A stretch of DNA of 64,000 nucleotides. It comes from Paramecium tetraurelia. Its lineage: Eukaryota. A model generated the notes under the pieces. That model saw nothing but the letters and a program-made list of their open reading frames with translations, did not search any database and was not told where the DNA came from. Location: NCBI GenBank assembly GCA_000165425.1, contig CT868027.1, positions 124,001 through 188,000 of the forward strand. The letters run 5' to 3'. A program made the position numbers and the translations under genes. This document shows positions 1,961-56,530 of the stretch, in pieces; position 1 is the stretch's first letter; each line of letters starts with the position of its first letter.

Positions 1961-1984
1961 TGTTTTAACTATATAAATTTAAAA

Positions 1985-3655
1985 ATGGGTGCTAATTCTT
2001 CTTAGGGTGAGAAATTCGTGTAAGAGTTCTAAAGACAATGTGTGAAAGTAAGAGAGTTGAAAGACTTGCGCTTTGGGGACGTGTAGATCTATCGAACACA
2101 GTAGAATTCGTACATTATGGTCAAGAGCATCTGGTGCAATAATTCAGCAGAATATGATGCATCAATCAGTAATATCCAATTGATTAATATAGGTAATTGT
2201 GAGAAGCGATCTAAACTTCAACATTAGAATCTAGTCAAACTCTTAGGGTATCATTCAAATTCACAAAACTAATGGTGTGGAGATTTTTCAAAAATAACAG
2301 TATATTTGGAATTCTTTGATTACACTCTAGAAAAGTCTATTGATACAAGGAGACAGACCAATCAATACTTTACAGAAGCTGAACTATGGAAAATGCTATT
2401 CACTATTGCAAAATTAGGAATCTATCTTGAAGAATAAAACAAAGTTCTTGGAGATATCAGACCTTGCAACATTTAATTGTCAGATGATTTGAAGATGGCA
2501 GTAAGAATTATCTTTAATTCTTTATAGGAATTAGGCATTTTGAAACCAGATCAAACAGGTTATTAAAGACAAATAAATAACCTAGAAGTAGCATACTTAA
2601 GTCCAGAACAGTTGTATTCACTCAACAATCCTTCAATTACTGCTAAATCAGATGTCTATTCTTTGGGAGTTACCATGTTAGAATGTTCAACTCTAATGAG
2701 TGGAAAGAATCTTTATAAATCTAATAGAATTGACAACCAACTACTTTAACAATTACTGGAAACGGTCAAATAACTTGGATATTCAAACCCATGGTACAGA
2801 ATGGTGAGAGAATTATTAAAAGAATAGCCCGATGAAAGACCTTCCTATTAAGATATTTATGTAAATTCAATATTAATAATTAGGATGCCCTCAAATAATT
2901 CGAAGTTTAAATCCTTAATTTGTAGCCTTTTTCCCTTATATATCAATAACCACCTATACAATAATAATCTGTATCACCATATAGGCCATAATATTAATAA
3001 TATTCATAGTCCTTACCACCTCAACATCAATAACCATAAACCCAAAATTCAGTTCCAATTCAATATTAATAATAATTCCAATAATAGTAACCATAATAAT
3101 AATAATAATAATAAATAACTATAATAATAATAATATGTTTAACTCATATAATTGCAATTTTTAAATANNNNNNNNNNNNNNNNNNNNNNNNNNNNNNNNN
3201 NNNNNNNNNNNNNNNNNNNNNNNNNNNNNNNNNNNNNNNNNNNNNNNNNNNNNNNNNNNNNNNNNNNNNNNNNNNNNNNNNNNNNNNNNNNNNNNNNNNN
3301 NNNNNNNNNNNNNNNNNCTTAGTAAATGGATTTACCATTAATAACCTTTGCCATAACAATTATTACCTCCATAACAATCTTACATGTATATAAATAATAA
3401 TAACCTTATTTAAATGAATTAGCAAATGCTTAATCAAATTATTTTGTTTAATAACCAGTTCATCATTTACCTTAGCAAATAGAATAGTCTCCATACCATA
3501 CACTATAGTCTCCATAAAATATGACATCAACAATGTATTATCAGGAGGAAGAATAGGATGATGGATTAAATGAGATTGACAGAAAGATCTAACAAGCATT
3601 AAAAATGACTAGGGATACTGAAATGAGAAATAAATAAACACCGAATTACTATTGA
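1985..3655 (+). CDS. N-myristoylated protein-kinase-like (pseudokinase) with Gln/Pro-rich tail
   Basis: Starts MGANSS. Kinase-fold remnants LGDIRPCNI, YLSPEQL and KSDVYSLGVTMLEC; no GxGxxG, HRD or DFG. Q/P/Y-rich tail runs into the N gap and a compatible frame ends ...QTPNYY-TGA at 3655; joining across the gap is inferred. Confidence 0.75.
2925..3140 (+). repeat. Gln-rich low-complexity coding tract (TAA/CAA triplets)
   Basis: Runs such as ataataataataataata at about 3093-3135 read as poly-Q under code 6. Confidence 0.7.
3168..3317. other. Assembly gap (150 N)
   Basis: Run of N adjacent to the poly-TAA tract. Confidence 0.99.
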
Positions 3656-12904: not shown

Positions 12905-15621
12905 TCATGAAAAGCAGTCAAGAAATACATCACTTTCTTCATTAGGTTCCTAATGTTACGATAATTGTTATAGTTACCTCCTAGAATACATAAATATTTC
13001 TTTCGCTTATATATTGATAATTTTTGCTTATAATTTCATGTACAAAATATTACTCATCCTAATATAATGAATTAATATTACATCATCATTTCCTACCCAC
13101 TCTTATCCTCTCCACACATAAACCTGCAAGACTTATTTATTAATTTCTTTTATTAAGATGCATAACTGAGATTGATCCAGATCCTCTAAATCGAACATCA
13201 ATAGATAATCATCTGAATTTGGATAAATGTAAAATGCCTTCTTTTCAACATGAACCTCCTCGACCCTGTCTGAACTATATAATTAAATATTGGATTCTTT
13301 TTCTTTATTAAATTCATTCTCATCAACTTCTTCATACCATTGATCCCATTCTCTTATTTTTTAGCAAATCACCCCAGGTTTACCAACTATTCCCCATAAA
13401 CCCCAAAACATTTCAGATTCATTTTCAGCTTCCATCAATATGGGTTGTATATTGGGGGCCTTTTCAAATTGCTTCAAAAATTTAGTATAATCAAGGGCAT
13501 ATTGGATGAATCTAATTTAAAAAAAAGAATTACTTTTCTGTCTTATTACATTCAGGTCCAATCCACAAATACAAATCATGTTCTGAAAGCACTAAAAAGA
13601 CTCCTCGACTATCAAATGTTCTCAACACCTTGCCAGAATACAATTAATCCATAAGCATTCTGCATGCAATACTTTATGGTCCACTAACTCCTCTGCCAAC
13701 TGCGAATACTCTTGGAGCAATAGGTATACTATCATATGAGGCTTGTAATCTCTTTTGAAATAGCAACAATTAAACTGTAAATCCCATATTAGGCGATGCT
13801 ACTCCTCTATTTTTCTTAATAATATCGAATGCTTGAGAATAAGTAATTTATTAGGAAATGATTAAATAAGCTATACACAGGGATACAGATCTTGATACTC
13901 CCTAAACACAATGAATCAACACTTTTCCATTATTTTTTTTCGCATTTTCAATGATGGAAATAACTTCATAAAATAAGCATTCTATATTTTCTGTCTTTGA
14001 ATCCTTCAGATAATAAGTTTGATAAAAGAAATCATCAGGATACTTATTTTTACATACATCTCCAGCACAATTGACTACATGAGTGACTCCAATTTATTTC
14101 AATACCTCTTTATTGTAAGCAATTTGTTCCCCTCCAACATAAAGAAAATTAGGAATTACAGATGAGCATTGTTCTGCAAAATGTTAAATTTTTAATTTTT
14201 TCCTATCTGTATCTCTGATATCGAAATTGAATCCATTTGAATCCTCTTCTTCAATATCTTAATATGTGGTATCATCTCGTTATAATTTCAGACTTGCTAA
14301 TGGCAATTTCATAGGTTTTATTTTTTCATTGTCATTGCACTCAACTCCCTCTACTAATGGAACTCCTATACTGACTTCTTGAGAATGAGTCTTGCAATTT
14401 AAATCTAGTTTAGGAATGTTTATTGCAGGAACTTTGCTTTTTATTTATGCAGGTAAATTAAATTAAAATGTATTATTGTTTGCTATTGGTTATTGTTATG
14501 GGCTAGTATCTTCATATCTATTGTTTTCTCTAGAACGACTAGAAATTGGTTTTGAACTTTCCTTTGAAATTGATGGAGACCCTTCATTGGAGATCTCATG
14601 TATTTTGTTGTTAATTTCATTTGAGTTTCTTCTTGGTAAGGCTAATTCTTTGAATGCATCTCTTGGTTAGGCATCTCTACTAGTCAAAGATTCTCTGAGA
14701 TTCAATTTAGGTTTTTGAATAACTTTGTTGTTGTTAGAATTTTAAATTTGTTCATCATTTAAATCAACATGAATAAATTATGATGCGTATGCCTATGTAT
14801 TTTATTTTTTAGCTAGAAAATCTGCCAATTTAGAGAACTCCTTCCTCTTTTCAGGGACTGGAAACAGAAAATTAAACAAATACACAGTTTCTCTTACTTA
14901 ATTTTCAGTTTCGATATTAGTAGTAGAGGATGTTTAGGCACTGCTTTGTAATGTCAAAATTGATCCTTTAGACAACTTTTTATTTTTAATTATGCCACCA
15001 CTAAAGAGTATTTCAAGTAAGGGATCTCTTCCTCTATTTAACAAGTTTTCTAATTCAAAAGCATTGGATAAGGCTGATGCTTTAATTAAGGGATTGGCTG
15101 CTTTGCCATTCCATACAAAAATCATATACTCGTAAATATTTGACGTTGAGGGGTTTTACTATCTTTGAGGGAGCAAAAAGGATTCTAGATGGCTTTCTGA
15201 TGCTGCTACTGGTTCCTCCAATCCTCTGGGAGTTAGGTTGGAGTAAGATTCAACGACGCCCCACATTTGATGAGGGAAGTTAGTGAATTGATTGTACTCT
15301 ATGTTAATTAAACAATGTTATACCTTCTTAGGCCTTTTTGTACACCAACAATACAAGATAGCATTCAGTTGACAGAAAATTAAAACCGCTAGTTTAGATG
15401 GTGCTTAAATTAATTGGTTCAGATTTAACTTTCTTTAAGGGGTGCTTGTCCTCTTAAAATTTCCAAATCTGATAATTTTGAAATTTATATACTTTTAAGT
15501 GTTAGGTTATACTTTCAGGAATGTTACTATCGAATTTAATCTTCTCCAATAATTTCGTATTGAGTTCTAAAATGTCCTCCAAATTTGAAACATGCTTGTC
15601 TATACTCAATTTGGATCCCAT
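12905..15621 (-). CDS. Dual-specificity (MAP kinase) phosphatase with gelsolin/villin-like repeats (plant MKP1-like architecture)
   Basis: MGSKLS start; gelsolin-like IFVWNGKAA; active site LIHCVQGVSRSVSLCIAYL (Q encoded by TAG); ASPNMGF; FDSRGVFLV...LYLWIG; FYVWRG...EEPNEESDVFLDCFS-TGA. Confidence 0.88.
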
Positions 15622-15753
15622 AATTTATATAAATAATTAATATTATATTTTAGAATAATATTTTCAAATATCATCCACGGATAATCTCACAGTAGATTCC
15701 CTCTATAAAAATATATTCAATTATTTTATTTAACTAAATAAATTTTAATTTTT

Positions 15754-16818
15754 ATGGATTAACAAAATTATACAATAGTTGGAGTGATGTCAGGAACATC
15801 ACTTGATGGAATAGATTTAGCATTAATTCAATTTGAAAACATGAATCAACAATGGCATTATAAAATTTTGAGTGCTCAAACTTACTTATACGAATAGTCT
15901 TGGATTGATCTACTTAAAAATGCTCATACCTTACAATAAGGTGAAATAGAAAGTTTTAATCTAAATTATACTCATCATTTAGCATAAAAAATTAATAAAT
16001 TCACTTCTCAATTTTAAGATGTCAAAATAGATGCCATATGTTCTCATGGACATACAATCATACATAAACCAAAAGAAGGAATTACAATACAAATAGGTAA
16101 CCTACCAATATTAAGCCAACTTGTTAAGACAACAGTTGTGTGTGATTTCAGAGTTTAAGATGTTAAATTAGGGGGAAATGGAGCACCTTTGGTACCACTT
16201 GGAGACAGAATTCTGTTTCATGAATATCATTATCGCATTAATTTAGGTGGATTCTCAAATATCTCATATGAAAGAGAAAATGTTACTCTTGCATATGATA
16301 TTTGTCCCGTAAACACTGTTCTGAATAGGCTAGCCTTTCCAAAAAACTATGATGAAAATGGGGATATCTCAAAAAGTGGAAATGTTAATCCAAATTTATT
16401 AGATCAATTAAATAATTTAGAGTATTATAAACTTTCACACCCAAAAAGTCTAGGAGTTGAATGGGTTTACGATTGTATTTTACCTTTACTTGATTCATCT
16501 AATCTGTCTTAATAAGATAAACTTTGCACATTTTGTGAACACATTGCTTATTAAATTGGGAAATCAATAGAGAAGAAGGATGAAAAGGTTCTATTCACAG
16601 GAGGTGGTGTATAAAATAAATACTTAATGGAGAGAATTCATCATTATGTCAAAAATGTTTAAATTTTAGATTAATAAGCATCTGATTTTAAAGAGGCCTT
16701 AATTTTTGGATTGCTTGGAGTGCTTAAATTAAGAAATGAAATTAATGTGTTGAGTAGTGTAACAGGAGCAAGTCATGATCACTCTAGTGGATATATTTAT
16801 AAATATTAAGAAAATTGA
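15754..16818 (+). CDS. anmK: Anhydro-N-acetylmuramic acid kinase (AnmK/levoglucosan kinase family), bacterial-type, 354 aa, intronless
   Basis: [93 protein letters not shown] and SVTGA in one frame. Confidence 0.95.
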
Positions 16819-16861
16819 ACTTAGGAGTAATTTGATTATAATTAAATATATATTTTAATAG

Positions 16862-18131
16862 TCAGAAACATTTACTCTTAAAAGGGTTTTTAATGTTTGG
16901 GAAGCATAATTATTTTACTTTATTTTCTATTGGATGAGGGATGACACAAAACTTACTGAAAAATTAATGTTTGAGACATAAAGAGGCTGAAGGTCGATAC
17001 TTCTTATGTCCAATCATCAAAAGTAAGAGTTATCTTTATTCTAAGTCCAATATCTTCGAAGATACTTTGATTTAGTTTAGTTGATTCAATAAAATTAAAT
17101 GATTCTTATCTTAATATTCTGGATACAGTTTCTGTCCAGATAATAAAGAATGAAATATGCTTCCTAAACTATAAATATCAACTAGTTCATCATAGTCTTC
17201 TTGATTTAAAATCTCAGGAGCCATGTATCCAGGTGTACCACATCTTACTTAAGTTTAGTAACCAATTTCTACAGCTAAGCCAAAATCAATTATTTTTATA
17301 GATTTTATATCATTTTAATTTTCCAAAACGATATTATCTAATTTTAAATCTCTATGAATGACTCCCAATTTATGTAAGTGTTTTACACCTTTTAGGAGTC
17401 TCTTCATGATGTACTTGATCTCTTCTATTTCTAAGGCTTTGTCTCTTTCTACTAGATAATTATATAAAAGTTCCACCTCTACAGTACTTCATAACAAAGA
17501 TTATTTCATTGGAATCTTTGTAAACTTCATCAATTTCGAGAATACTTTGGTATTTTTATTGATTTAATTCGAAAACAATGTTTAATTCCTGCTGGACCTT
17601 TGACTGAAATAGTTCATATAATATACTTAATCATTAATTTTGACAAATTTAACTAATCTTAGTTCTCCTGTTTCTGTTTGAACGTATTTGGAAATCTATT
17701 TAGCTAATATCATTACTTAGACATCTTCTTTTTACATAAAAGAACTTTTAAATTGATAATAATTATTAAAGTCTGTGTACAATACACTCCCATCGAGTAA
17801 TTACTTTAATTATATCAGTTTTTCTGCATCGGCCAAATAAGTTATCGACTTTTAAGCCATAGAAAAATTGCATTAATATGAAACTTTAAACCCTTTGAGG
17901 ATATTCTCACTAAATTATATATTATGTAATATACTTATATATCCAACTTATTGTTGTCAAATGAGATCGAAGCTGAATTTCTCTGCTCCTTTGCTCCAAT
18001 CCTACATCAATGTTGGACTGATCTTAGTTTTCATTGCTTATCATCAATTTTCTTTTGTACAAGAATAATTTTCTTGGCATATTGTTTTTTGCATTGCTTA
18101 CATCACAGGTAAATATGATATCTTTGTTCAT
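16862..18131 (-). CDS. Ser/Thr protein kinase (CAMK-like) with degenerate N-lobe
   Basis: MKYCRGG, HRDLKLDNI, IIDFGLA, CGTPGYMAPE and DIYSLG; no clear GxGxxG; TGA at 16862-16864. Confidence 0.85.
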
Positions 18132-27850: not shown

Positions 27851-30800
27851 TCAATACTCGTCAATAGTATCTTTTGTGTCCAGTTAAACCATATATCTGA
27901 CCTTCACTTTGGTCTCATCATAGACTATGTATTCATTGTGCTAAAGTTAAAAGCGAACTGGATTTCCTTCCTTATCCTTCTTCTTAGGTTATGGATAGTC
28001 AATGCATTATCCAACAGGCACCTTACATCCATTTGACAAAATCACTGACTAGTTGTAATCAGGTCCTCGTCTTCCACATCCTTTGACAGACTAGTATTAT
28101 TCTAAAATTATTATCTGATAAAATTACTGTCTAGATTGGTAATGTATTCAGGATTATATTGATTCAAAGTTTTTCCTACAGCCACTTCGCATAATAACAT
28201 GTATCTGTATCTTTGAATTTCATCTTGCTCATCTTTCTTAGCATTATTTGATCTGTCGTAATATCCATTTTATTAGAAAAGTCCATTATATGTGTTGTAA
28301 TAGAGAGACCAATCCTCAGTATAACCAAATGACTTTTAGAACATATCTGCAAAGTAGATACCTTTTCCAAACATAGTTCCGGTATTAAAAGCCCATGGAG
28401 GTGCCACTAAATATATAGACAATAATCAATACCTCTAAGTCCTTAAGCCAGAATACCCATGAAATTTGATATTTTAGAACCATGCCATAAGAGCATTCTG
28501 TTATGTTGTTTATTGTGCTCAAATCTTTCAGCTTCTCCTCTTCTCTCAACTGCAAAGATATTGGACACCTTTGCTTGTTGGGATTAATTGATATATTAGA
28601 CTATCAATTTGAATTCAGGATGCTCTTTTGGTAGAGTAACTACTCTAACATTGAGAGCATTGAAACAATAAGTTAATGGATTAATTGTCTATTTCACAAG
28701 ATGAGCACCCAATAGGATTTTAGAAGTGATTTCAAAGTTAAGTAAGGTTTCAATTAACAACAACTTTTGATTTATTGCTTCAACTGAATCCAATGGAGGG
28801 AAGAGGTTCTGTTTTTAATTCTGTTACTGGAATGAATTCATAAAATCTGCTTGATTTATCACAAATTTCATTAAATATGTTTTGTATCTTCTTAATATCA
28901 AGATCTCCAGTTTATCTGAGTTTTTGTAGATCTTCCACACAATCTGTTAATTCATTCAAAATAGCCTTAGCTGCTTCCAATTGCTTTCTATCTAGTCTTT
29001 CAATAGGCATAGAATCCAAATCAATATGGAATTACTATAAATCCTTGTTGTACAATTTAACTTAGACAAATTGCAACATGAACCTTCTGATTGCTTTTTC
29101 TAAATTGCATTGTTAATAAGGACTCTTCTTGCTAAAATCGAATGGATTAAGTAAGGTCTTGTAATTTTTAACATTCTTGAAATTAATCAATTAATATTTT
29201 CCTGGCTTTTTCTCAAAAGGCTCTTCTCCTGATGAAACCTTCTTCCAATCATTCCCTCCAGTCTTAGAATGGAATATCTTATTGAACTCCTTAATAGCCT
29301 CTTCTGCATTTTCAAAAGGTGTCAATTGATGCTATCCACCTGTACCAATTCTTCCCCATCTTGTGAAGAGTATAAACACATTTCTGTTTATTTCATGTAA
29401 GAGTTGCATCTTATAGAAGACATTCTCCGAATAGATGCCATTTCCAATATCCACTTTAGTCATCTATAACGAATATGGACCAGATTCTTTGTCTATCCAC
29501 ACTTCAACCTTCCCAGATGAAGTAGCTCGACTATCCACTATTTTTCTTGTGTCTTATTTTGAATCATCCAATTATTCACCATTTTAATCCAAGAATTTCT
29601 AAGCATCTGCCTCAACATCAATCTCTTCCTCTACCCATTATGCTTGAGAAATAACACTGGTTGGGAGTCTAGGCTGCTTTTACTTCTTGCCTTCTTTAGC
29701 ATTCAATTTCTTAAGAACTTCAGCCATGGTTCCTGAATCTTGATCATTAGCATAATCCAAAGGAGTTCTACCAAGTTTATCAGCTTGATTGATATCAAAT
29801 TACTTTGACAATATTTACAACATCTCAATGTTTTCATATGATCCAAATTCAAGTGGCTATACCACATAATGAATAGGCGTTCTATTCTACGAATCTTGAG
29901 CGTGAAGAGCAACCTTAAACTAAGGATGATTCAATATATAGTTGACCAACTTCAAGGAATTTATTTTAATAGCTAACATTAATGATGTTTCTCCGTTCTC
30001 AGTCTTTTCATTGATATCACAACCAGCATCTGTAAATTTATTGAGGATTATCACATCCTCCAAATGATATTCCTAGATCAAGTACAAAATTGGAGTTATT
30101 TAATAATCCTTTCCTTTAACCTTAAATTTCACATTTAAATTGGTTTTCTTATCCTTCCAGTGTTATAACTCTACATCAGATACCAAGGCTTTGTACTTTT
30201 CTTACAATCTAATAGAAAATGGAGTGTTCTAATCATTGTTGTAACAATTTGGATCACTATCTGATTACAACAAATATTAAATCATTCCAAAAAAGTCATT
30301 TTGAGCAGCATAATGTAATGGAGTATTATTCTAGTCATCCTTAGCATTTCTATCTACTTGTCTGCTTGCTAATTCATCAGCAATCATTAAAGAGATCTCA
30401 TCTGTACACTACCTACCCTTTATTGAGAAAATATGGAAAAGGTTTTATTTATTTTTGTTTTACTTCTATACAATTTCATCATCTTTCACTTTCATCAATA
30501 AAGTACGAACTAGTTTGAATTGCTCCTCCATTATTGCATCTTCAATTGCCCTTTGTAAATCATAGCCATCTGAAATCAATAAGTATGCCAATCCTTACCA
30601 ACCCTATTTGATGGCTAATTTAAAATAAGAATAAGTTCCTACTGGGAATTTGGTTGATTGCAATAAATAAACTTTGACTCGTTTTTAAGTTTTGCCTTAT
30701 TGATGATTTCCATAATATGGTCTTGCTGCAACTGCAGCCATCCTTTTAATTGGAGCCTTTCCTCCATATGACTTTCTGGCAGTCTATTTGGTTCTAGCAC

Positions 30801-33800
30801 CTCCATATAGTCCATTATCATCTTCCTCTTCTCCTTAGCCTTAGTCTTCGTTTTCTTCTTCTTCTTCATCACTCGCAAATTCGTCTTCCTATTCTATTGC
30901 CTCTCCCCTTTCAATTCTCTCCTTAATCTTCTTCCTTTCCTCCCTTCTAATCTTCTCATAATCAACAACAGTTGCGTATCTATTGACATCTGCCTTATTA
31001 TCTATAAGCATGGTGCAGAAATTAGAGTGACCACATAAGAATGCCAAAGCCAGTGGAGTGTTGCCATATTTATCAGGTACATCAATGGGAGCCTTCATTT
31101 TAATCATGTATCTTCCTGAGATTACACTTCCTCTCATGGCGGCATAATGAAGAGGAGATCTTTAATGGATATCCACAGTATCAACTGAACAATGTTTATC
31201 AGCTAATACAGATGACACTGTTTCAAATGGATCAATCTCTCTAAAATCATTATCATAAGTCATTTTTGTGAATGCATAGAAGAGGGGAGTTCTCTTGTAG
31301 ATGTCTAAGGCATTAGTGTTTGCTCCATTCTTAATTAACAAATGTTCCATCTCAAAACTGGCATCTGCTTCAGAATTAGATGAATTGATAGCATGATGTA
31401 AGGCAGTCCTTTTAGACTTATCAGGGAAATTGGGATCAGCCTTAAATTTAGTTAAAAATATCCCCACAACTTTAACATTACCTTACCTTACCCAATTTTA
31501 TATTGGGACTACATCTTCCTCATTCAAATTGTTAACACTGCCTCCATTTGAGATTAGAATATCCAAGATTCCATCTAGGGTATAATTGTATCTACAAGCT
31601 ATCTAACTTGTTGGAGTATTTAATTCTTCATCCTTTACAGTGACATCAATCTTACTAATTACATACTCTAAAAATGTTTAACTGTTTTCGTTTTCTCTAC
31701 CACAAACTTGATTCATATTGCATGAATTTGCAAAAAGATGAATGGGATAAATATTTTATTAGGCAGCTTCAGTGAAGGATAATGCCTTGATTTTATTGAT
31801 TTCTTGGATGAATGAAACACTATGATAAGACTTGAAAATAAAATGAGCTATAGTATAACCTCCCTCATCAATATAAGGATGATCTGTATTCTCTTATTGG
31901 TCCTCTTTTTATTCTCTAAATTACTTTCTCTTTATGATTGATGAATTAGAGTCTGCTCCTAAATTAATGAGCAATTGATATAGCTTAATTACTACCTCTT
32001 ATAGAGCCAAACATTCTTGTTTAGACTCATTGACCAAAACATCAACTTAATCTTACTTTAAAAAGACTATAACTGGCTTATTTTTATAATAAAATGTTTT
32101 AGTGTGGTATTAATCCTTAACTTTTACAGCATTTGCTTGAGGTTTAGAAAAAATATTAGTGGATCCAAGTAATCCATTTCTTGTTTTTTAAGGATGATGA
32201 TCATCTTCATCAGAATAATCTTAATTTTCATCTTCATCTTCATCCTCAATTTCATCTTCATTTTCTTCTTCATCTTCATTACTCTCTTCTACTTGGCTTT
32301 CTTCAACTTCTAGTTCATCTTTATCACTTCCTTCTTCATTTTCATCTTCTTCTCCTCCTTCACCTTCTTCATCTTCATCTTCTTCATTTTCTTCTTCATC
32401 CTGAAGATTTTTCTTCCCATCTTTCTAATCATTATTTTTCAACTTCTTTTCTTGATTTATCTTCTCCTCCTCTTCTACTAATATCTTTTGTTTCTCTTCG
32501 AATAATTTCTATAATAAAACCGATACTTTTTTTTCATAAATTTTTGAATATTATTATTCTGCTGTGCTTGTAAATTCAGAAAATAGATAAAGTATTGGAT
32601 TCCATCCATTTTCATCATATTAATTGACAAAGGTTGGATCCACAGTCTTAATGATATTCTATAAAATAGAAAATCCCTTTTCACTTTAGAATAATCTACA
32701 TTCAATTAACTTATGCAAGATGTTTCTATCTTTTTTATCAACATAGTTAACAGAAGGAGTAGACAATTTCAATAGTAATTCAGACACTTTGAAATTCTAA
32801 CTAATTAATGATTGAATGAATGGAGTTTATCCATTATTATCTTAGACATTAACATCTGAACCTGCATTAATTAAGAGTTCAATCATCTCGTGAACTAACT
32901 CCTCATACTTATTTTTGATAACTCTTCTTTCTGCTTTGCTCATTTCATTCCATTTAGGATAAAATTACTTGGCTTCTTTTCTTGACAATAATACTGCATA
33001 ATGCAAAGGAGTCTTCTCTTATAAGTCTGCAATCTTGACATCAGCATTCTTCTCCAAAATCAAATATTTCATGTACTCAAATGAATCCACTGTAAACTTA
33101 CTCAAACTTGAAGAAATCAAAGTTCTGCCTTCATCATCTTTACAATTGACATCAGTTGTTGGATAACTCAATAACTTCTTAACAATTCCCAAATGATTCT
33201 TCTATAGAGCCACAGACAACGGAGTCAATTTCCAAGAATTTGGTAAATTTTAATCAGCTCCAGCCTTCATTAGTTCTTCTATACATTCTGGAAAACCATA
33301 AGCTGCTGCATAATGAAGAGGAGTATTCTTAGAACTGTCTGGCTAATCATATTCGGCTCCATGATAAAGTAATAAAGAAAGAATCTTTACATTTCCATTA
33401 CGTGCAGCCAAAACACAAGAAGTTCTTCCATATTTATCCTTGGCCAAAACTTTTGCTCCCTATTCAATTAAATACTTAGCTAATTCATAATGGCCATATG
33501 CACATGCAATATTTAATGGAGTCATTCTATTTTATCCTGTCAAATTAATTTTTGCTCCATTTTTTAACAAAACCTTTACAGTCTCCAAATGTCCTCCCAA
33601 ACATGCGGCATGAATTGCTGCATTTCCATCTCTATTTTTTCCATCTATATTATTAGAAGCCAATAATTCGACATTATGTGTTCTACCATATTATGCTGCC
33701 AATATCAATGGGGTGCTCTTATTTCGATCTCCCTCTCTAACATCTATACTATTATCCATTAAAAACTTAAGACAAGCTGAAGTTTATGCGACAGCAGCAT

Positions 33801-35616
33801 AATGGACAGGTTTCCTATGAAAATCATCTAAAATATTATATTCCTATGAAATTTCTAACAATTTCTATAGGCATGCATGATTTGGATTAATAGCTGCACA
33901 ATGGATTGGAGTAACTAAATAAGTTCCACCTGATTTCTTTGTGGCTGAGGGTTTCTTAATATTACCAATGCGACTGGCACTTGTGTAATTCAAAACATCA
34001 ACATGAACTTAATTAAACCCATACATATGTCCTTTATCCATTGCCATTTGAACCAAATAACCAGCTGTCTTCCAATTTCCACTTCTGACTGCTAATGCAA
34101 TTTGATCATAATATTGATGTTCCTCTCCCAATTAGGCAATCATTAACCCAAAGAATTCAGGATTAGTTTCGATTTTCAATAATCTCTCAATTTAATCCTC
34201 TGTTAAAGTATCTTCCTGATCCAAATCATAAACAAAAGCATTATTTCCTTCTCTTCCTCCTCTGCCTAAGGCCACCTTTCTCGTTCTGGAACCATAAGCA
34301 TATTAATCATTATATCCTGTTTATATTTCCTTGAGAGAACATCTAGGAGTAGTTCCCAATTTGACTTTTTCCATTGCCTTTAGAAACTTAAGCAACATAG
34401 CTTTATCTTATCTTTTAAAAATGAGTTCAATAGCATTGGCATCATTTTCAGGAGCCCATCTCTAAAAGAGATTACTAATTTTTAATGAATGAGCAAAAAT
34501 ATCATCTAATAATTTAATATTACCTGTTTGAGCAGCTCTAATCAACTCCTTATTATTCATCATGATGCTTGAATGATCAACGAATTTTGAGGATGTTCCT
34601 TCTAATTGTTCACTAGTTTACCTAATTTCTCTGTAATTGGGATTAGCTTTGCCTCTCATGAATTTTTTTGGTTGAGCAGGTTACGATTTAGATTTCTTAG
34701 CACCTGCTTTCCCTTTCTTTTTCTTTTCTTCAACTGATTGAGATTGAACTTCATTTTCTTCAAACTCTTCTTCAGATTCATCAGACTCTTCCTTTTTCTA
34801 TGCTCTACCTCTCTTGATTTATTTTTTCTAAACTGGAGGTACTTCAGGTTGAGCTTTCTTACCGGATGGAGCTTATCTAGTAGCTCTTTTCTTTTTTTAT
34901 TCTTATTCACTTTCCTCATCAGAACTCTATTCACTTTCTTACTATTTTACTTACTTTGTTGGTTTTTTATTAGTTTTCACAACCTTTTGTGCTTGCTTTT
35001 TTGTTGTTACTTACTTTTTGGGTGGTTATTCCTCAGATGATTCTTCTTCCTCAGCACTGTCTTCAGATTCAACCTTTTTTTTTGTAATTTTTTGGACTTC
35101 CTTTTTTTGAGTCTGTTCTTTTACTGCTTATTTTGTTCCTTTCTTTATTGTTTATTTTTTGGGGGGTTCCTCTTCTTCACTTTCGCTTTCAGAACTTACC
35201 TGTTTCTTTTACTACTTGGTATTGGCGGGAATTTGTTTAACGCTCTTTGCAATATCTTACAATGTATCCTATTGGAATACAAAAGATGTAACAGTTGATT
35301 TACTTCTTGGATTTGGTTTTGTGGATTTTACTTCAACATCTTCCACAATTTTACTAAAAAATAATATCTTTTCTTACGTTCTTTCCTTAACGGATAATAG
35401 TGCTTCTTATGACTCTTTGTAGACTACTTTGCCGTCCTTTTGCTTCTCCTGCTACTCCAGTCTTACTACTTTTAATTAGGATTTGTGGTCATTAGTTTTT
35501 AAATCTTCCACTACTTTGTAAAAGACTGGCTTGCCTTTTTCACTTTGTCCTAGGATCTGGTCCTTTTTGAATTGATATGCATAGTTAGGTTCTGTCTTTT
35601 ATCCACGAGTCTTCAT
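27851..35616 (-). CDS. Very large poly(ADP-ribose) polymerase: K/E-rich N-terminus, many ankyrin repeats, WGR, PARP regulatory and catalytic domains
   Basis: Ankyrin motifs ([26 protein letters not shown]); FTRWGRIGT at about 29350; LLWHGS at about 28480; [26 protein letters not shown] at about 27930. The H-Y-E triad is intact. Confidence 0.93.
32185..32480 (-). repeat. Acidic (E/D) low-complexity tract inside the PARP
   Basis: Dense TTC/ATC repeats on + read as GAA/GAT (poly E/D) on the minus strand. Confidence 0.8.
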
Positions 35617-35715
35617 TTAAGTTTATTATTAAATTAAATTAAAAATCTGATGGATTTTTGATTAAATTTTATATGGGGTATCTAAATTATTATAAATAAA
35701 TTAATAATTAAATTC

Positions 35716-55465: not shown

Positions 55466-55789
55466 ATTAAATTATTGCTAAGGTATTTAATTGTACTCAC
55501 TAAAATAATAGGCAAATGATTTTTTGTTTATGTATTATTAAATTTATCGAACTGTTATTTATTCTGAAAGTGAGATTATTTTAAATATGGATATATATGT
55601 AGTAATTCTATTGTGCTCTTTGGCATGCAATTAATTTTAATGATATCAATAATAATATTGATTAATATAAATAATCGAGGATTATCAGAAATAATTAGAA
55701 TGAATATTTAATTTGAATTGAGTATAATAGCGCGTATTTATTTATCCTAAAAAAGAAAGCGAGGGCATATTTGAAATTCAATAAATAAA

Positions 55790-56530
55790 ATGGATAAGAA
55801 GTTTATAATTGTATCCCTGGAAGGAAATGTGGGTGCAGGCAAATCAACCTTATTTGAGATTTTGAGACAAGAATTCCCGAAGGCAATTTTCCTCATGGAG
55901 CCCTTGGAATAGTGGCAGAACGTGCATGGTAACCCCAACCTAAATATCTTGGAGAAGTACTACTCAGACATTCAACGTTGGGGTTTCACTTTTTAAATTT
56001 ATGCTTACCAATCCAGATTAATGGCTTGGGACAAATAATTAAGAGCAGTAGTCAAAGAGCAAAAATTGTAACAGATAGACAATCAATTTTCATCTCCATC
56101 AACCAACGCTGATGATGAACCCATCCTCGTATTTACTGAGAGAAGCATTGAGAGTGCAAGGGAATTGTTTTTCAAATTGTGTTATAATGATGGAACAATC
56201 AACGAACTTGAATATCACATATACGAAGAGTTTTATGAGTGGCTCATGGAACACTACAAGTAATATTTGGTGGATTGTGTCATTTATGTTAACACTCCTC
56301 CTGAAACATGTTTGGAACGTTTGACTCGCAGAGGCAGACAAGAAGAAGCATGTGTCCCACTCGATTACTTGAAGAAGTTACATTAACGACATGAGGATTG
56401 GCTTTCTGATAATACTAATAAATTCAAAATCATAAATATCGATGCTACCAAAAACTACGTTAAGGATTTGGATATCAAAGAAGCTGTTCGCAGACAATTA
56501 ATTGATGAAATATCCACTTTGATTGATTGA
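55790..56530 (+). CDS. Deoxynucleoside kinase (dCK/dGK family), 246 aa, intronless
   Basis: LEGNVGAGKST, EPLEQW, RWGFTFQ, FTERSI, CLERLTRRGRQEE and YLKKLHQRHEDWL. Confidence 0.93.

What the first reader, a model, noticed from the sequence alone, without database searches (positions are those of the whole stretch)
15754..16818. Bacterial peptidoglycan-recycling kinase AnmK domesticated in a ciliate genome
Seen: a full-length, intronless 354-aa ORF with all AnmK motifs (SGTSLDG, SHGHT, DFR..D...GG.GAPLVP, NLGG.SN, TGGG..N, KEA..F, VTGA). It sits between two intron-bearing ciliate genes, and about 14 of its Gln codons are TAA/TAG, including the one in DFRVQD, so it cannot be bacterial contamination. 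Established: AnmK converts 1,6-anhydro-MurNAc from cell-wall turnover to MurNAc-6-P, and fungal levoglucosan kinase is a homologue. Inference: the variants [15 protein letters not shown] and PKSLGVEW resemble Bacteroidetes/Flavobacterium AnmK as I recall them. That suggests horizontal transfer from prey and a eukaryotic pathway that salvages amino sugars from digested bacterial walls. This is the best candidate here for an undescribed system.
Basis: partly seen in the sequence, partly recalled or inferred. Interest (0 to 1): 0.85.

Follow-up and report, generated by a model that had tools for sequence, protein, structure and literature searches.

The report
Flavobacterium cell-wall sugar kinase in Paramecium
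Paramecium tetraurelia carries an intact, transcribed gene for a bacterial cell-wall-recycling kinase (AnmK) that came from a Flavobacterium-like bacterium; it is a clean case of gene transfer, but what the enzyme does in the ciliate is still untested.

Summary
Window 15754-16818 (+) is a 354-codon intronless ORF under the ciliate code, with 13 TAA and 1 TAG read as Gln. It matches Pfam AnmK (E 1e-61) and passes the curated cut-off of NCBIfam AnmK model NF007144.

The window is Paramecium tetraurelia. The gene lies between a spliced phosphatase gene and a protein-kinase gene. RNA contigs cover the whole ORF. P. octaurelia, P. primaurelia and P. pentaurelia keep it next to the same neighbour.

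After Paramecium, the best hits are Flavobacterium AnmKs at 53-57% identity. Trees place it with Flavobacteriaceae (100/99). Whether it sits inside or beside that group is unresolved (AU p 0.36). It was not found in the P. sonneborni, P. bursaria, Tetrahymena or Blepharisma proteins in the database, so transfer within the aurelia lineage is likely.

Catalytic and substrate-binding residues are kept, and substitutions among the Paramecium species avoid conserved sites.

The proposed salvage pathway is not shown, because MurQ and other partner enzymes could not be searched here. The idea is not new: UniProt already names these proteins AnmK, and a 2026 paper reports anmK, murQ and NamZ transfers into anaerobic ciliates.

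Verdict: real, and a new member of a known kind.

The parts
15754..16818 (+). AnmK coding sequence: 354 codons plus TGA, no intron, 13 TAA and 1 TAG read as Gln
   Evidence: Translation. PF03702. NF007144 above its cut-off. RNA contig without gaps.
15743..16864 (+). Stretch covered by one 1122-nt RNA contig of run X17, with 0 differences and 0 gaps. This is the whole ORF plus 11 nt upstream and 46 nt downstream.
   Evidence: table 8, record 6. Run X19 covers 15757-16878 in two contigs; run X20 covers two fragments.
15624..15753 (.). 130-bp AT-rich spacer between the divergent start codons of the phosphatase gene (ATG at 15623-15621, minus strand) and AnmK
   Evidence: Sequence. The N-terminus MGSK of P0311 matches it. 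15606-15753 is 17% G+C.
16819..16861 (.). 43-bp spacer between the convergent stop codons of AnmK and the kinase gene
13494..15623 (-). Upstream neighbour: dual-specificity phosphatase + gelsolin-repeat gene (public P. tetraurelia protein P0311, 864 aa), with a 22-nt intron at 13533-13512
   Evidence: Pfam DSPc 2.6e-30 and Gelsolin 4.1e-09. Intron left out in runs X17, X19 and X20 and kept in X9. Intron sequence. 100% identity to P0311.
16862..17956 (-). Downstream neighbour: protein-kinase gene, with an unresolved frame break near 17489
   Evidence: Pkinase 2e-38 for 16865-17488. Frame analysis.

Best explanation
This is a nuclear Paramecium tetraurelia gene for anhydro-N-acetylmuramic acid kinase. 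One gene was acquired from a bacterium of, or next to, the Flavobacterium lineage, probably within the P. aurelia complex. It has since been fully adapted to the host: it has its own short flanks, no intron, and host codon usage that includes TAA/TAG for Gln.

Shown: the bacterial ancestry, residence in the genome, transcription, and conservation in four species with enzyme-like constraint.

Inferred: the protein has no N-terminal extension relative to its bacterial relatives, so it is probably cytosolic. There it would use ATP and water to open the 1,6-anhydro ring of anhMurNAc and produce MurNAc-6-phosphate. The substrate would be the glycan-chain ends and turnover fragments of ingested or intracellular bacteria.

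For this to feed the cell, an etherase (MurQ-like), trimming enzymes and an export step from the food vacuole are also needed. None of these has been located.
For: Family: PF03702 at 1.2e-61. NF007144 equivalog at 475.9 bits against a cut-off of 436; a Flavobacterium AnmK hits the same model at 516 bits. Solved AnmKs match at 2.8e-31 and 6.4e-28.

Residues: I mapped the P. aeruginosa residues listed in the text and supplementary Table S2 of PMC10570956 through the alignments. The Paramecium equivalents are D18 (Asp14), T101 (Thr97), R133 (Arg129), L146/V147 (Leu142/Val143), D182 (general base Asp182), N187 (Asn187), Y199 (Phe202), G284 (Gly292) and E314 (Glu326). All of these except Y199 are identical in all 4 Paramecium proteins (P. 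pentaurelia has F at 199) and, Y199 again aside, in 75 of 75 Flavobacteriaceae homologues.

Constraint: 74 of 76 columns invariant in the 75 bacteria, and 123 of 132 columns at 90% or more, are unchanged. The 53 sites that vary among the four Paramecium proteins lie in columns that also vary in bacteria (mean entropy 2.23 against 1.12 bits, Mann-Whitney p 4e-11).

Residence in the genome: there are 14 in-frame TAA/TAG codons. TAA at Q135 and Q267 aligns with Gln in 68 of 75 and 72 of 75 bacteria. TAA/TAG make up 0.58 of Gln codons, against 0.53-0.75 in six host ORFs, and GC3 is 0.17. A DNA contig of run X9 runs from 15526 to beyond 18000. 19 runs hold at least half of the 4.6-kb stretch's sampled words; after leaving out possible-source samples, these come from 10 studies.

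Transcription: contigs of runs X17, X19 and X20 lack the neighbour's 22-nt intron that DNA run X9 keeps, so they derive from RNA. X17 covers 15743-16864 in one contig without gaps.

Origin: after P. octaurelia (95%), the other 119 of the 120 listed hits are 53-57% identical, and every one that carries a name is Flavobacterium or Flavobacteriaceae. In a 101-genome sample of the genus, 77 genomes match at E 4e-102 or better, the best at 422 bits and 56% identity. In a 301-genome sample of the family, the best is 401 bits. The trees give SH-aLRT 99 (118 rows) and UFBoot/SH-aLRT 100/99 (66 rows) for Paramecium lying with Flavobacteriaceae.

Distribution: the phosphatase neighbour used as a control finds P. 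sonneborni (2 copies), P. bursaria, Tetrahymena and Blepharisma proteins in the same database. The AnmK query finds only P. tetraurelia, P. octaurelia, P. primaurelia and P. pentaurelia. In those last three species AnmK shares a contig with one phosphatase copy and has an adjacent or near-adjacent accession number.

Donor pathway: 5 of the 5 nearest Flavobacterium genomes encode MurQ above its cut-off, on contigs other than the AnmK contig.
Against: No activity data exist for this protein. To my recollection, none exist for any member of the Flavobacteriaceae subfamily either.

The conserved residues do not separate AnmK from levoglucosan kinase, which also has the DFR Arg, SHGQT and KEA.

Three positions depart from the Flavobacteriaceae pattern in all four Paramecium proteins: C161R and R178T (each 75 of 75 in the bacteria) and Y/F287Q in the GGGxxN motif (73 of 75 aromatic). 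These positions do vary in 33 more distant Bacteroidota-type rows.

The partner enzyme MurQ, the trimming enzymes and a transporter were not searched for in Paramecium, because no genome is held. Without MurQ the product is a dead end.

1,6-anhydroMurNAc is, from general knowledge, a minor part of peptidoglycan, and lysozyme digestion does not create it.

Placement inside Flavobacteriaceae is not secured. The branch uniting Paramecium with the genus sample has only 93, 86 or 81/94 support. An AU test does not reject Paramecium lying outside all 47 sampled rows of that side (p 0.356).

Absence from P. sonneborni and P. bursaria rests on annotated proteins only.
Confidence: 0.6

Rival explanations
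1. The kinase is kept and active, but its job in Paramecium is not nutrition. It would clear or report anhydromuropeptide fragments shed into the cytoplasm by intracellular bacteria (the endosymbionts common in P. aurelia species) or leaking from food vacuoles. This resembles the use insects make of acquired peptidoglycan genes to manage symbionts.
For: The protein has no N-terminal extension relative to bacterial AnmKs; the alignment starts at residue 1-4. It is therefore probably cytosolic, where prey wall fragments are not expected but endosymbiont turnover products are. anhMurNAc is made by bacterial lytic transglycosylases during growth (general knowledge), so it marks live, growing bacteria. 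P. bursaria regulates a horizontally acquired NamZ within a glycan-sensing network (bioRxiv 10.1101/2024.09.14.613017, passages read). Aphid and mealybug examples were seen only as search listings and abstracts.
Against: Nothing in the window links the gene to symbiosis. The runs that were laid are coded, so the strains' symbiont status is unknown. There is no localisation or expression contrast.
Confidence: 0.15
2. The enzyme has shifted substrate since transfer to another 1,6-anhydro sugar, for example levoglucosan or an anhydro-amino sugar lacking the lactyl group. That would explain how it can be useful without a MurQ partner.
For: Levoglucosan kinase is a homologue (E 1.7e-22) and shares the same catalytic motifs. 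Three positions that are invariant or nearly so in Flavobacteriaceae are replaced in all four Paramecium species: C161R, R178T (four residues before the general base) and Y/F287Q. The Paramecium stem branch is long, 0.5-0.9 changes per site.
Against: Arg133, which corresponds to the Arg that pairs with the lactyl carboxylate in P. aeruginosa AnmK, and Thr101, which corresponds to the acetyl contact, are kept. The protein scores above the curated AnmK equivalog cut-off. It lacks the extra ~90 residues of the solved levoglucosan kinases (354 aa against 447 aa). The three changed positions also vary among other Bacteroidota-type AnmKs.
Confidence: 0.15
3. The gene is a transcribed but functionless passenger on its way to decay.
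For: It is a single gene with no known partner. It was not found in the annotated proteins of P. sonneborni or P. bursaria.
Against: The 354-codon frame is intact in four species that differ at 53 of 354 sites, and those differences avoid conserved columns (p 4e-11). 74 of 76 invariant columns are kept. RNA contigs cover the full length.
Confidence: 0.05
4. Bacterial contamination or an assembly chimera; or an old, vertically inherited eukaryotic gene.
For: The closest relatives are bacterial and the gene is intronless.
Against: 14 in-frame TAA/TAG codons would be stops in a bacterium. GC3 and Gln codon usage are host-like. One DNA contig joins the gene to both neighbours. The gene holds the same position in three other species. 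No other eukaryote appears among the 120 best hits, although the control neighbour finds P. bursaria, Tetrahymena and Blepharisma in the same database.
Confidence: 0.02

Closest known systems
AnmK of Flavobacterium / Flavobacteriaceae (NCBIfam NF007144, PRK09585.2-3)
   Same: Same length class (352-362 aa) and 53-57% identity. The protein scores above the model's curated cut-off. It shares subfamily signatures: GGF(S/A)N(I/V)S, A(F/Y)DI(C/S)PVN, PKSLGxE(F/W), and Asn at the position of P. aeruginosa Asp191.
   Different: It is encoded in a ciliate nucleus with TAA/TAG Gln codons. It carries C161R, R178T and Y/F287Q, and sits on a long stem branch. The bacterial relatives sit in genomes that also encode MurQ (5 of 5 tested); a partner in Paramecium is unknown.
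Biochemically and structurally studied AnmK of Pseudomonas aeruginosa (PDB 3QBW, 4MO4/5, 8BRE, 8CPB; EC 2.7.1.170) and the Shewanella structure 3CQY
   Same: Equivalents of the general base Asp182, the metal ligands Asp14 and Glu326, Arg129, Thr97, Leu142/Val143, Asn187, Gly292 and the adenine-stacking aromatic Phe202 are all present.
   Different: Identity is only around 30%. Asp191, Asp205 and Arg238 of the Pseudomonas enzyme are Asn, Asn and Val here. Asn at the Asp191 position (75 of 75) and a hydrophobic residue at the Arg238 position are shared with the Flavobacteriaceae subfamily. The Asp205 position varies there (K in 38 of 75).
Levoglucosan kinase (PDB 4YH5, 4ZXZ, 5TKR; the yeast source is recalled, not taken from a call)
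   Same: Homologous fold and the same catalytic motifs. It is the known eukaryotic use of this family.
   Different: It scores lower (83.7 against 112.6 bits) and is 447 aa long with insertions. Paramecium's nearest relatives, and the clade it falls in, are Bacteroidota AnmKs; no levoglucosan kinase row was included in those trees.
Laterally acquired anmK, murQ, NamZ, pbp4b and nagB-PIGL of anaerobic (APM) ciliates such as Metopus (PMC13198582, 2026; passages and one supplementary legend read)
   Same: Bacterial amino-sugar and peptidoglycan genes, anmK among them, have entered ciliate genomes. The paper interprets them as a route to degrade bacterial walls.
   Different: Those are different ciliate classes. 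The donors proposed for anmK there are environmental or CPR-like clades, not Flavobacteriaceae, so this looks like a separate acquisition. The main text and the one supplementary file held as text (figure legends only) do not mention a Paramecium anmK. The tree figures themselves could not be read.
Horizontally acquired NamZ-like and TtsA-like lysozymes of Paramecium bursaria (bioRxiv 10.1101/2024.09.14.613017; passages read)
   Same: Same genus, with bacterial wall-glycan enzymes gained by transfer and recoded with ciliate stop-codon usage.
   Different: Those are glycoside hydrolases, not a kinase, in a different species. The terms AnmK, MurQ, muramic and aurelia do not occur in that text. 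No AnmK of this type from P. bursaria is among the hits.

Membership tests
AnmK (PF03702; NCBIfam NF007144; EC 2.7.1.170) | Full-length match to the family profile above the curated threshold | tested here: met
   PF03702 at 209.3 bits against a cut-off of 24, covering residues 8-349 of 354. NF007144 equivalog at 475.9 bits against a cut-off of 436, covering residues 1-350.
AnmK (PF03702; NCBIfam NF007144; EC 2.7.1.170) | General base Asp (P. aeruginosa Asp182) that activates the water attacking C1 | tested here: met
   D182 in AYDICPVN aligns with Asp182 (its role is from PMC10570956). It is D in 4 of 4 Paramecium proteins and 75 of 75 Flavobacteriaceae.
AnmK (PF03702; NCBIfam NF007144; EC 2.7.1.170) | ATP/Mg site of the sugar-kinase/actin-like fold: Asp14, Glu326, the Gly292 loop, Asn187 and the adenine-stacking aromatic | tested here: met
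   D18, E314, G283-G285, N187 and Y199 are present. The residue list comes from the supplement of PMC10570956. The aromatic that follows the glycines (GGGA-F/Y-N) is Gln287 here.
AnmK (PF03702; NCBIfam NF007144; EC 2.7.1.170) | Contacts to the N-acetyl and lactyl groups of anhMurNAc (Thr97, Arg129, backbone of Leu142/Val143) | tested here: inconclusive
   T101, R133, L146 and V147 are conserved. However, levoglucosan kinase keeps the same Thr and Arg, so these residues do not prove specificity for anhMurNAc.
AnmK (PF03702; NCBIfam NF007144; EC 2.7.1.170) | Catalyses anhMurNAc + ATP + H2O -> MurNAc-6-P + ADP | not testable with these tools
   This needs an enzyme assay.
AnmK-MurQ peptidoglycan-recycling / salvage pathway | A MurNAc-6-P etherase (MurQ) and upstream trimming enzymes in the same organism | not tested
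   No genome is held for the window. No such gene was seen among the window ORFs that were translated or scanned. In the nearest Flavobacterium genomes MurQ is present in 5 of 5.
Levoglucosan kinase | Closer kinship to the characterised levoglucosan kinases than to bacterial AnmK | tested here: not met
   83.7 bits to levoglucosan kinase against 112.6 bits to AnmK, and 354 aa against 447 aa. All of the top 120 hits that carry a name are Paramecium or Flavobacterium/Flavobacteriaceae.
Bacterium-to-eukaryote horizontal transfer | Nested among sequences of one bacterial group, absent from sister eukaryotes, and physically integrated in the host genome | tested here: met
   Paramecium groups with Flavobacteriaceae at SH-aLRT 99 and 100/99. 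Strict nesting is not secured (AU p 0.356). It was not found in the P. sonneborni, P. bursaria, Tetrahymena or Blepharisma proteins that the control query does find. Integration is shown.

The most novel reading that the evidence does not exclude
A subgroup of the P. aurelia complex gained a Flavobacterium AnmK after its last whole-genome duplication. The gene is single-copy, lies beside only one of two near-identical phosphatase paralogues, and was not found in P. sonneborni. In this reading the cell uses it in the cytosol as the entry point of a eukaryotic route that consumes or reads out 1,6-anhydromuropeptides, which are the chemical signature of bacterial lytic transglycosylases. The remaining steps would come from separately acquired or recruited host enzymes. 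That would be a eukaryote metabolising a peptidoglycan fragment class otherwise handled only by bacteria, in a model organism where RNAi by feeding makes the idea directly testable.
Probability: 0.2. Interest if true: 0.65.

Novelty: new member of a known kind. Interest (0 to 1): 0.4.

Why it matters
This is an unusually clean and apparently young bacterium-to-ciliate transfer. One gene sits between ordinary host genes, is fully recoded to the ciliate code, is transcribed, and is under enzyme-like constraint in four sibling species.

Paramecium tetraurelia is a laboratory model with RNAi by feeding and defined bacterial food. That makes it possible to ask experimentally whether a phagotroph can use or sense the anhydro-sugar ends of its prey's cell wall.

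It also adds an independent case, with a different donor and a different ciliate class, to the recent report of anmK and murQ transfers into anaerobic ciliates. This suggests that ciliates repeatedly recruit peptidoglycan-recycling enzymes.

The limits are that the gene is already auto-annotated in public databases, the concept is in print, and the rest of the pathway is unknown.

Tried and rejected
- **Own-genome search:** not possible, because no genome is held. MurQ, NagZ, AmpD/AmiD, NamZ, NagA and NagB in Paramecium therefore remain untested.
- **Earlier findings of this scan:** nothing for this genome or sequence, and one unrelated bacterial note.
- **Pfam scan of all 140 ORFs in one call:** I then scanned 8 and 9 selected ORFs. 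The other ORFs were only read by eye from the printout, up to about 49.3 kb.
- **Genome-contig scan with the single protein:** gave only 5 loci.
- **Metagenome-contig scan:** gave 2 loci, both bacterial-like at 46-47% identity. No further Paramecium-like DNA was obtained, so dN/dS could not be computed.
- **Names for 10 outgroup clusters:** only 1 of 10 carried a name.
- **Taxon labels:** genome handles carry none. 'Genus' and 'family' therefore mean only 'sampled as the genus or family of G001', whose record title says Flavobacterium.
- **Careful tree under the mixture model:** not finished after 707 s. I replaced it with a careful LG+G4 tree whose bootstrap had not fully settled (correlation 0.980). 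The 66 rows were picked by hand from the 118.
- **Tree of the 12 phosphatase paralogues:** unresolved, so it cannot say which P. sonneborni copy corresponds to the AnmK-linked one.
- **Gene neighbourhood of AnmK in one Flavobacterium MAG:** acyl-CoA dehydrogenase, a dehydrogenase and NhaA, so it gives no functional hint.
- **Intron search in the kinase gene:** no credible intron.
- **Parts of the stretch without RNA cover** (for example 15094-15709 in runs X17, X19 and X20) and contig depths: not used as evidence.
- **Not done:** structure prediction, complex prediction, the protein atlas and the third homology search were not used. A MurQ query would have been swamped by bacterial hits.
Full report
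**Observation.** Under the ciliate code, window 15754-16818 (+) reads as 354 residues ending in TGA. The reverse strand is closed. Open frames are cheap here because TGA is the only stop: the window has 140 stop-to-stop ORFs of 150 aa or more. The weight therefore rests on the profile matches. PF03702 (AnmK) matches at E 1.2e-61 over residues 8-349. NCBIfam NF007144, an AnmK equivalog, scores 475.9 bits against a curated cut-off of 436; the other 13 AnmK sub-models fall below their cut-offs. Solved AnmKs match at 2.8e-31 (3CQY) and 6.4e-28 (8BRE), and levoglucosan kinases at 1.7e-22.

**Where it sits.** The neighbouring phosphatase protein is 100% identical to a public Paramecium tetraurelia macronuclear protein of 864 aa, so the window is P. 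tetraurelia.
- Upstream, on the minus strand, is that gene (DSPc 2.6e-30 and a gelsolin repeat). Its ATG is at 15623-15621, which leaves a 130-bp spacer to the AnmK ATG; 15606-15753 is 17% G+C.
- Downstream, 43 bp after the AnmK stop, a protein-kinase gene ends on the minus strand.
- Other ORFs that were scanned are ordinary eukaryotic genes: a PHD finger, Kelch repeats, a cullin and a deoxynucleoside kinase.
- No second bacterial-looking gene was seen in what I scanned, or in what I read by eye from the printout.

**Not contamination, and expressed.**
- The ORF has 29% G+C and a GC3 of 0.17.
- 14 of its 24 Gln codons are TAA/TAG (0.58). Six host ORFs show 0.53-0.75.
- Two of the TAA codons (Q135, Q267) align with columns that are Gln in 68 and 72 of 75 Flavobacteriaceae homologues. 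This is what C-to-T drift after entry into a TAA=Gln host would produce.
- 19 public runs hold at least half of the sampled words of the 4.6-kb stretch 13400-18000. After leaving out samples flagged as possible sources, they come from 10 studies.
- Four runs were laid. Contigs of X17, X19 and X20 leave out 22 nt at 13512, which is the GT..AG intron 13533-13512 of the phosphatase gene. DNA run X9 keeps those 22 nt. The three runs are therefore RNA-derived.
- X17 holds one 1122-nt contig over 15743-16864 with no difference and no gap. X19 covers 15757-16878 in two contigs, and X20 covers two fragments. The gene is therefore transcribed and intronless.
- An X9 contig of 3796 nt runs from 15526, inside the first exon of the phosphatase gene, through AnmK and beyond 18000.

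**Origin.** In the 5.8-billion-protein search the best hit is P. octaurelia at 95%. The other 119 listed hits are 53-57% identical, and every one that carries a name is Flavobacterium or Flavobacteriaceae. The 90% cluster holds the window's own protein plus P. octaurelia, P. primaurelia and P. pentaurelia, and UniRef already calls these AnmK.

I sampled unnamed species genomes around a Flavobacterium MAG (L001/G001).
- In the genus sample of 101 genomes, 77 match at E 4e-102 or better (47-56% identity, best 422 bits). One more has the gene split over two contigs. 20 have only a distant AnmK type (31-36% identity). One has a 22-residue fragment, and 2 have none.
- In the family sample, 290 of 301 genomes match, the best at 401 bits.

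The trees gave the following.
- FastTree on 274 rows (4 of 278 dropped for length) puts the four Paramecium rows (support 100) next to the 121 top hits in a clade of 125 (support 96).
- IQ-TREE quick under LG+C20+F+G4 on 118 rows gives an 86-row clade (SH-aLRT 99) that holds all 41 genus rows, the 30 best family rows and Paramecium. Within it is a 55-row clade (93) with 40 of the 41 genus rows, the 5 named rows, 6 unnamed rows and Paramecium.
- A hand-picked 66-row subset gives 99 and 86 in the quick tree. In a careful LG+G4 tree it gives 100/99 for Paramecium plus Flavobacteriaceae against the other Bacteroidota-type rows, and 81/94 for Paramecium plus the genus sample against the other family rows. 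The bootstrap had not fully settled.
- In the 66-row trees Paramecium pairs with two long unnamed metagenomic rows (83; 81/82). This may be long-branch attraction.
- An AU test does not reject a tree in which all 47 Flavobacteriaceae-side bacteria exclude Paramecium (p 0.356).

So the donor lineage is Flavobacteriaceae or its immediate sister, most like Flavobacterium. The exact position is open.

**When it was acquired.** As a control, the phosphatase neighbour was searched in the same database.
- It finds two copies at 90% identity or more in each of P. octaurelia, P. primaurelia, P. pentaurelia and P. sonneborni.
- It finds one copy in P. tetraurelia, and an older paralogue cluster at 82%.
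- It also finds P. bursaria (73%), Tetrahymena, Blepharisma and others.

The AnmK query found none of P. sonneborni, P. bursaria, Tetrahymena or Blepharisma among its 120 best hits. In P. octaurelia, P. primaurelia and P. pentaurelia, AnmK lies on the same contig as one phosphatase copy, with an adjacent or near-adjacent accession number. AnmK is thus single-copy, linked to one of two recent paralogous regions, and seen only in one subgroup of the aurelia complex.

The simplest reading is a gain after the last genome duplication and after the split from P. sonneborni. An earlier gain followed by losses is not excluded. The phosphatase tree is too flat to help, and absence is judged from annotated proteins only. 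A scan of metagenome contigs gave only bacterial relatives.

**Is it still an enzyme?** The P. aeruginosa residues come from the text and supplementary Table S2 of PMC10570956. I mapped them through the alignments.
- The Paramecium equivalents are D18, T101, R133, L146/V147, D182 (general base), N187, Y199, G284 and E314.
- Apart from Y199 (Y or F, in Paramecium as in the bacteria), these are identical in all four Paramecium proteins and in 75 of 75 Flavobacteriaceae rows.
- 74 of 76 columns invariant in those bacteria, and 123 of 132 columns at 90% or more, are unchanged.
- The 53 sites that vary among the four Paramecium proteins fall in columns that also vary in bacteria (entropy 2.23 against 1.12 bits, p 4e-11).

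Three departures are shared by all four species:
- C161R and R178T, each 75 of 75 in the family.
- Q287, encoded by TAA, where 73 of 75 bacteria have Tyr or Phe in the GGGxxN motif. That codon is one step from TAT/TAC and would have been a stop in the donor.

These three positions do vary among 33 more distant rows, so they do not argue strongly for loss or change of function.

The conserved contacts do not tell AnmK from levoglucosan kinase, which keeps the same Arg, Thr and Glu. The assignment to anhMurNAc therefore rests on the equivalog score and on the clade.

**Mechanism.**
- Shown: a bacterial AnmK gene is integrated, transcribed and conserved.
- Inferred: it is cytosolic, because it has no N-terminal extension relative to bacterial starts. 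There it would convert anhMurNAc to MurNAc-6-P.
- In the five nearest Flavobacterium genomes MurQ is present, on contigs other than the AnmK contig, so a single transfer event would not have brought it along.
- Whether Paramecium has an etherase, the enzymes that free anhMurNAc from muropeptides, and a way out of the food vacuole could not be examined.
- From general knowledge, anhMurNAc is a minor component made by bacterial lytic transglycosylases, not by lysozyme. This tempers the nutritional reading and keeps a clearing or sensing role, or a shifted substrate, as live rivals.

**What is known.** Full-text searches found no paper that describes a Paramecium AnmK.
- The searches were: Paramecium with the enzyme name, with the MurQ name, anmK with ciliate, Paramecium with NamZ, and a broader HGT query.
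- The HGT table of the Pseudocohnilembus genome paper does not contain the terms 'anhydro' or 'muramic'.
- PMC13198582 (2026; passages and a supplementary legend read) lists anmK, murQ, NamZ and others as lateral acquisitions of anaerobic ciliates. It proposes a complete peptidoglycan-degrading route, with environmental or CPR-like donors for anmK.
- A 2024 preprint shows acquired NamZ- and TtsA-like lysozymes in P. bursaria.

The present gene is therefore a further, apparently independent instance of a known kind, in a better experimental model.

**Verdict.** Horizontal origin and domestication are supported. The salvage pathway is untested, and novelty is modest.

Noticed in passing
window 16648 and 16725 (inside the AnmK ORF): DNA run X9 has contigs whose matching part begins at these places and is preceded by unrelated AT-rich letters. 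No such loose ends appear in the three RNA runs (table 7). They could be germline reads that carry internal eliminated sequences, a partial second copy, or an assembly-graph artefact.
   Followed up: no
window 16862-17956, minus strand: The protein-kinase gene changes frame near 17489, between ...KYCRGG and ELLYNYLVER.... No GT..AG intron of 18-40 nt restores a sensible kinase sequence. It may be a frameshifted pseudogene.
   Followed up: partly
genomes G306, G307, G313, G317, G320, G330, G178, G333 and 12 others of the genus sample: 20 of 101 genomes sampled from the genus of G001, mostly 3.5-5.9 Mb, carry only a distant AnmK type (31-36% identity to the query, open frames of 395-431 aa, or 337 aa in G391) instead of the NF007144 type found in 78 others (one of them split over two contigs). 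Each genome has one type or the other.
   Followed up: no
window 3168-3317: A run of 150 N, an assembly gap, lies inside a Gln/Asn-rich stretch of a long ORF (1961-3652, +) whose N-terminal part looks like a protein kinase.
   Followed up: no
window 55775-56527 (+): An uninterrupted 251-aa ORF matches the deoxynucleoside kinase family (PF01712, 1.7e-49). Its origin was not examined.
   Followed up: no
protein P0138 (884 aa, unnamed): This unnamed (presumably bacterial) protein carries the AnmK domain as its C-terminal part (residues 528-883, 47% identity to the query). It is a fused form of the kinase.
   Followed up: no
window 28783-35715, minus strand: A single 2311-codon open frame contains many ankyrin-like repeats and acidic or lysine-rich linkers. 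Judged by eye, a poly(ADP-ribose)-polymerase-like ORF follows at 28167-28955 (printout). It was not scanned against Pfam.
   Followed up: no
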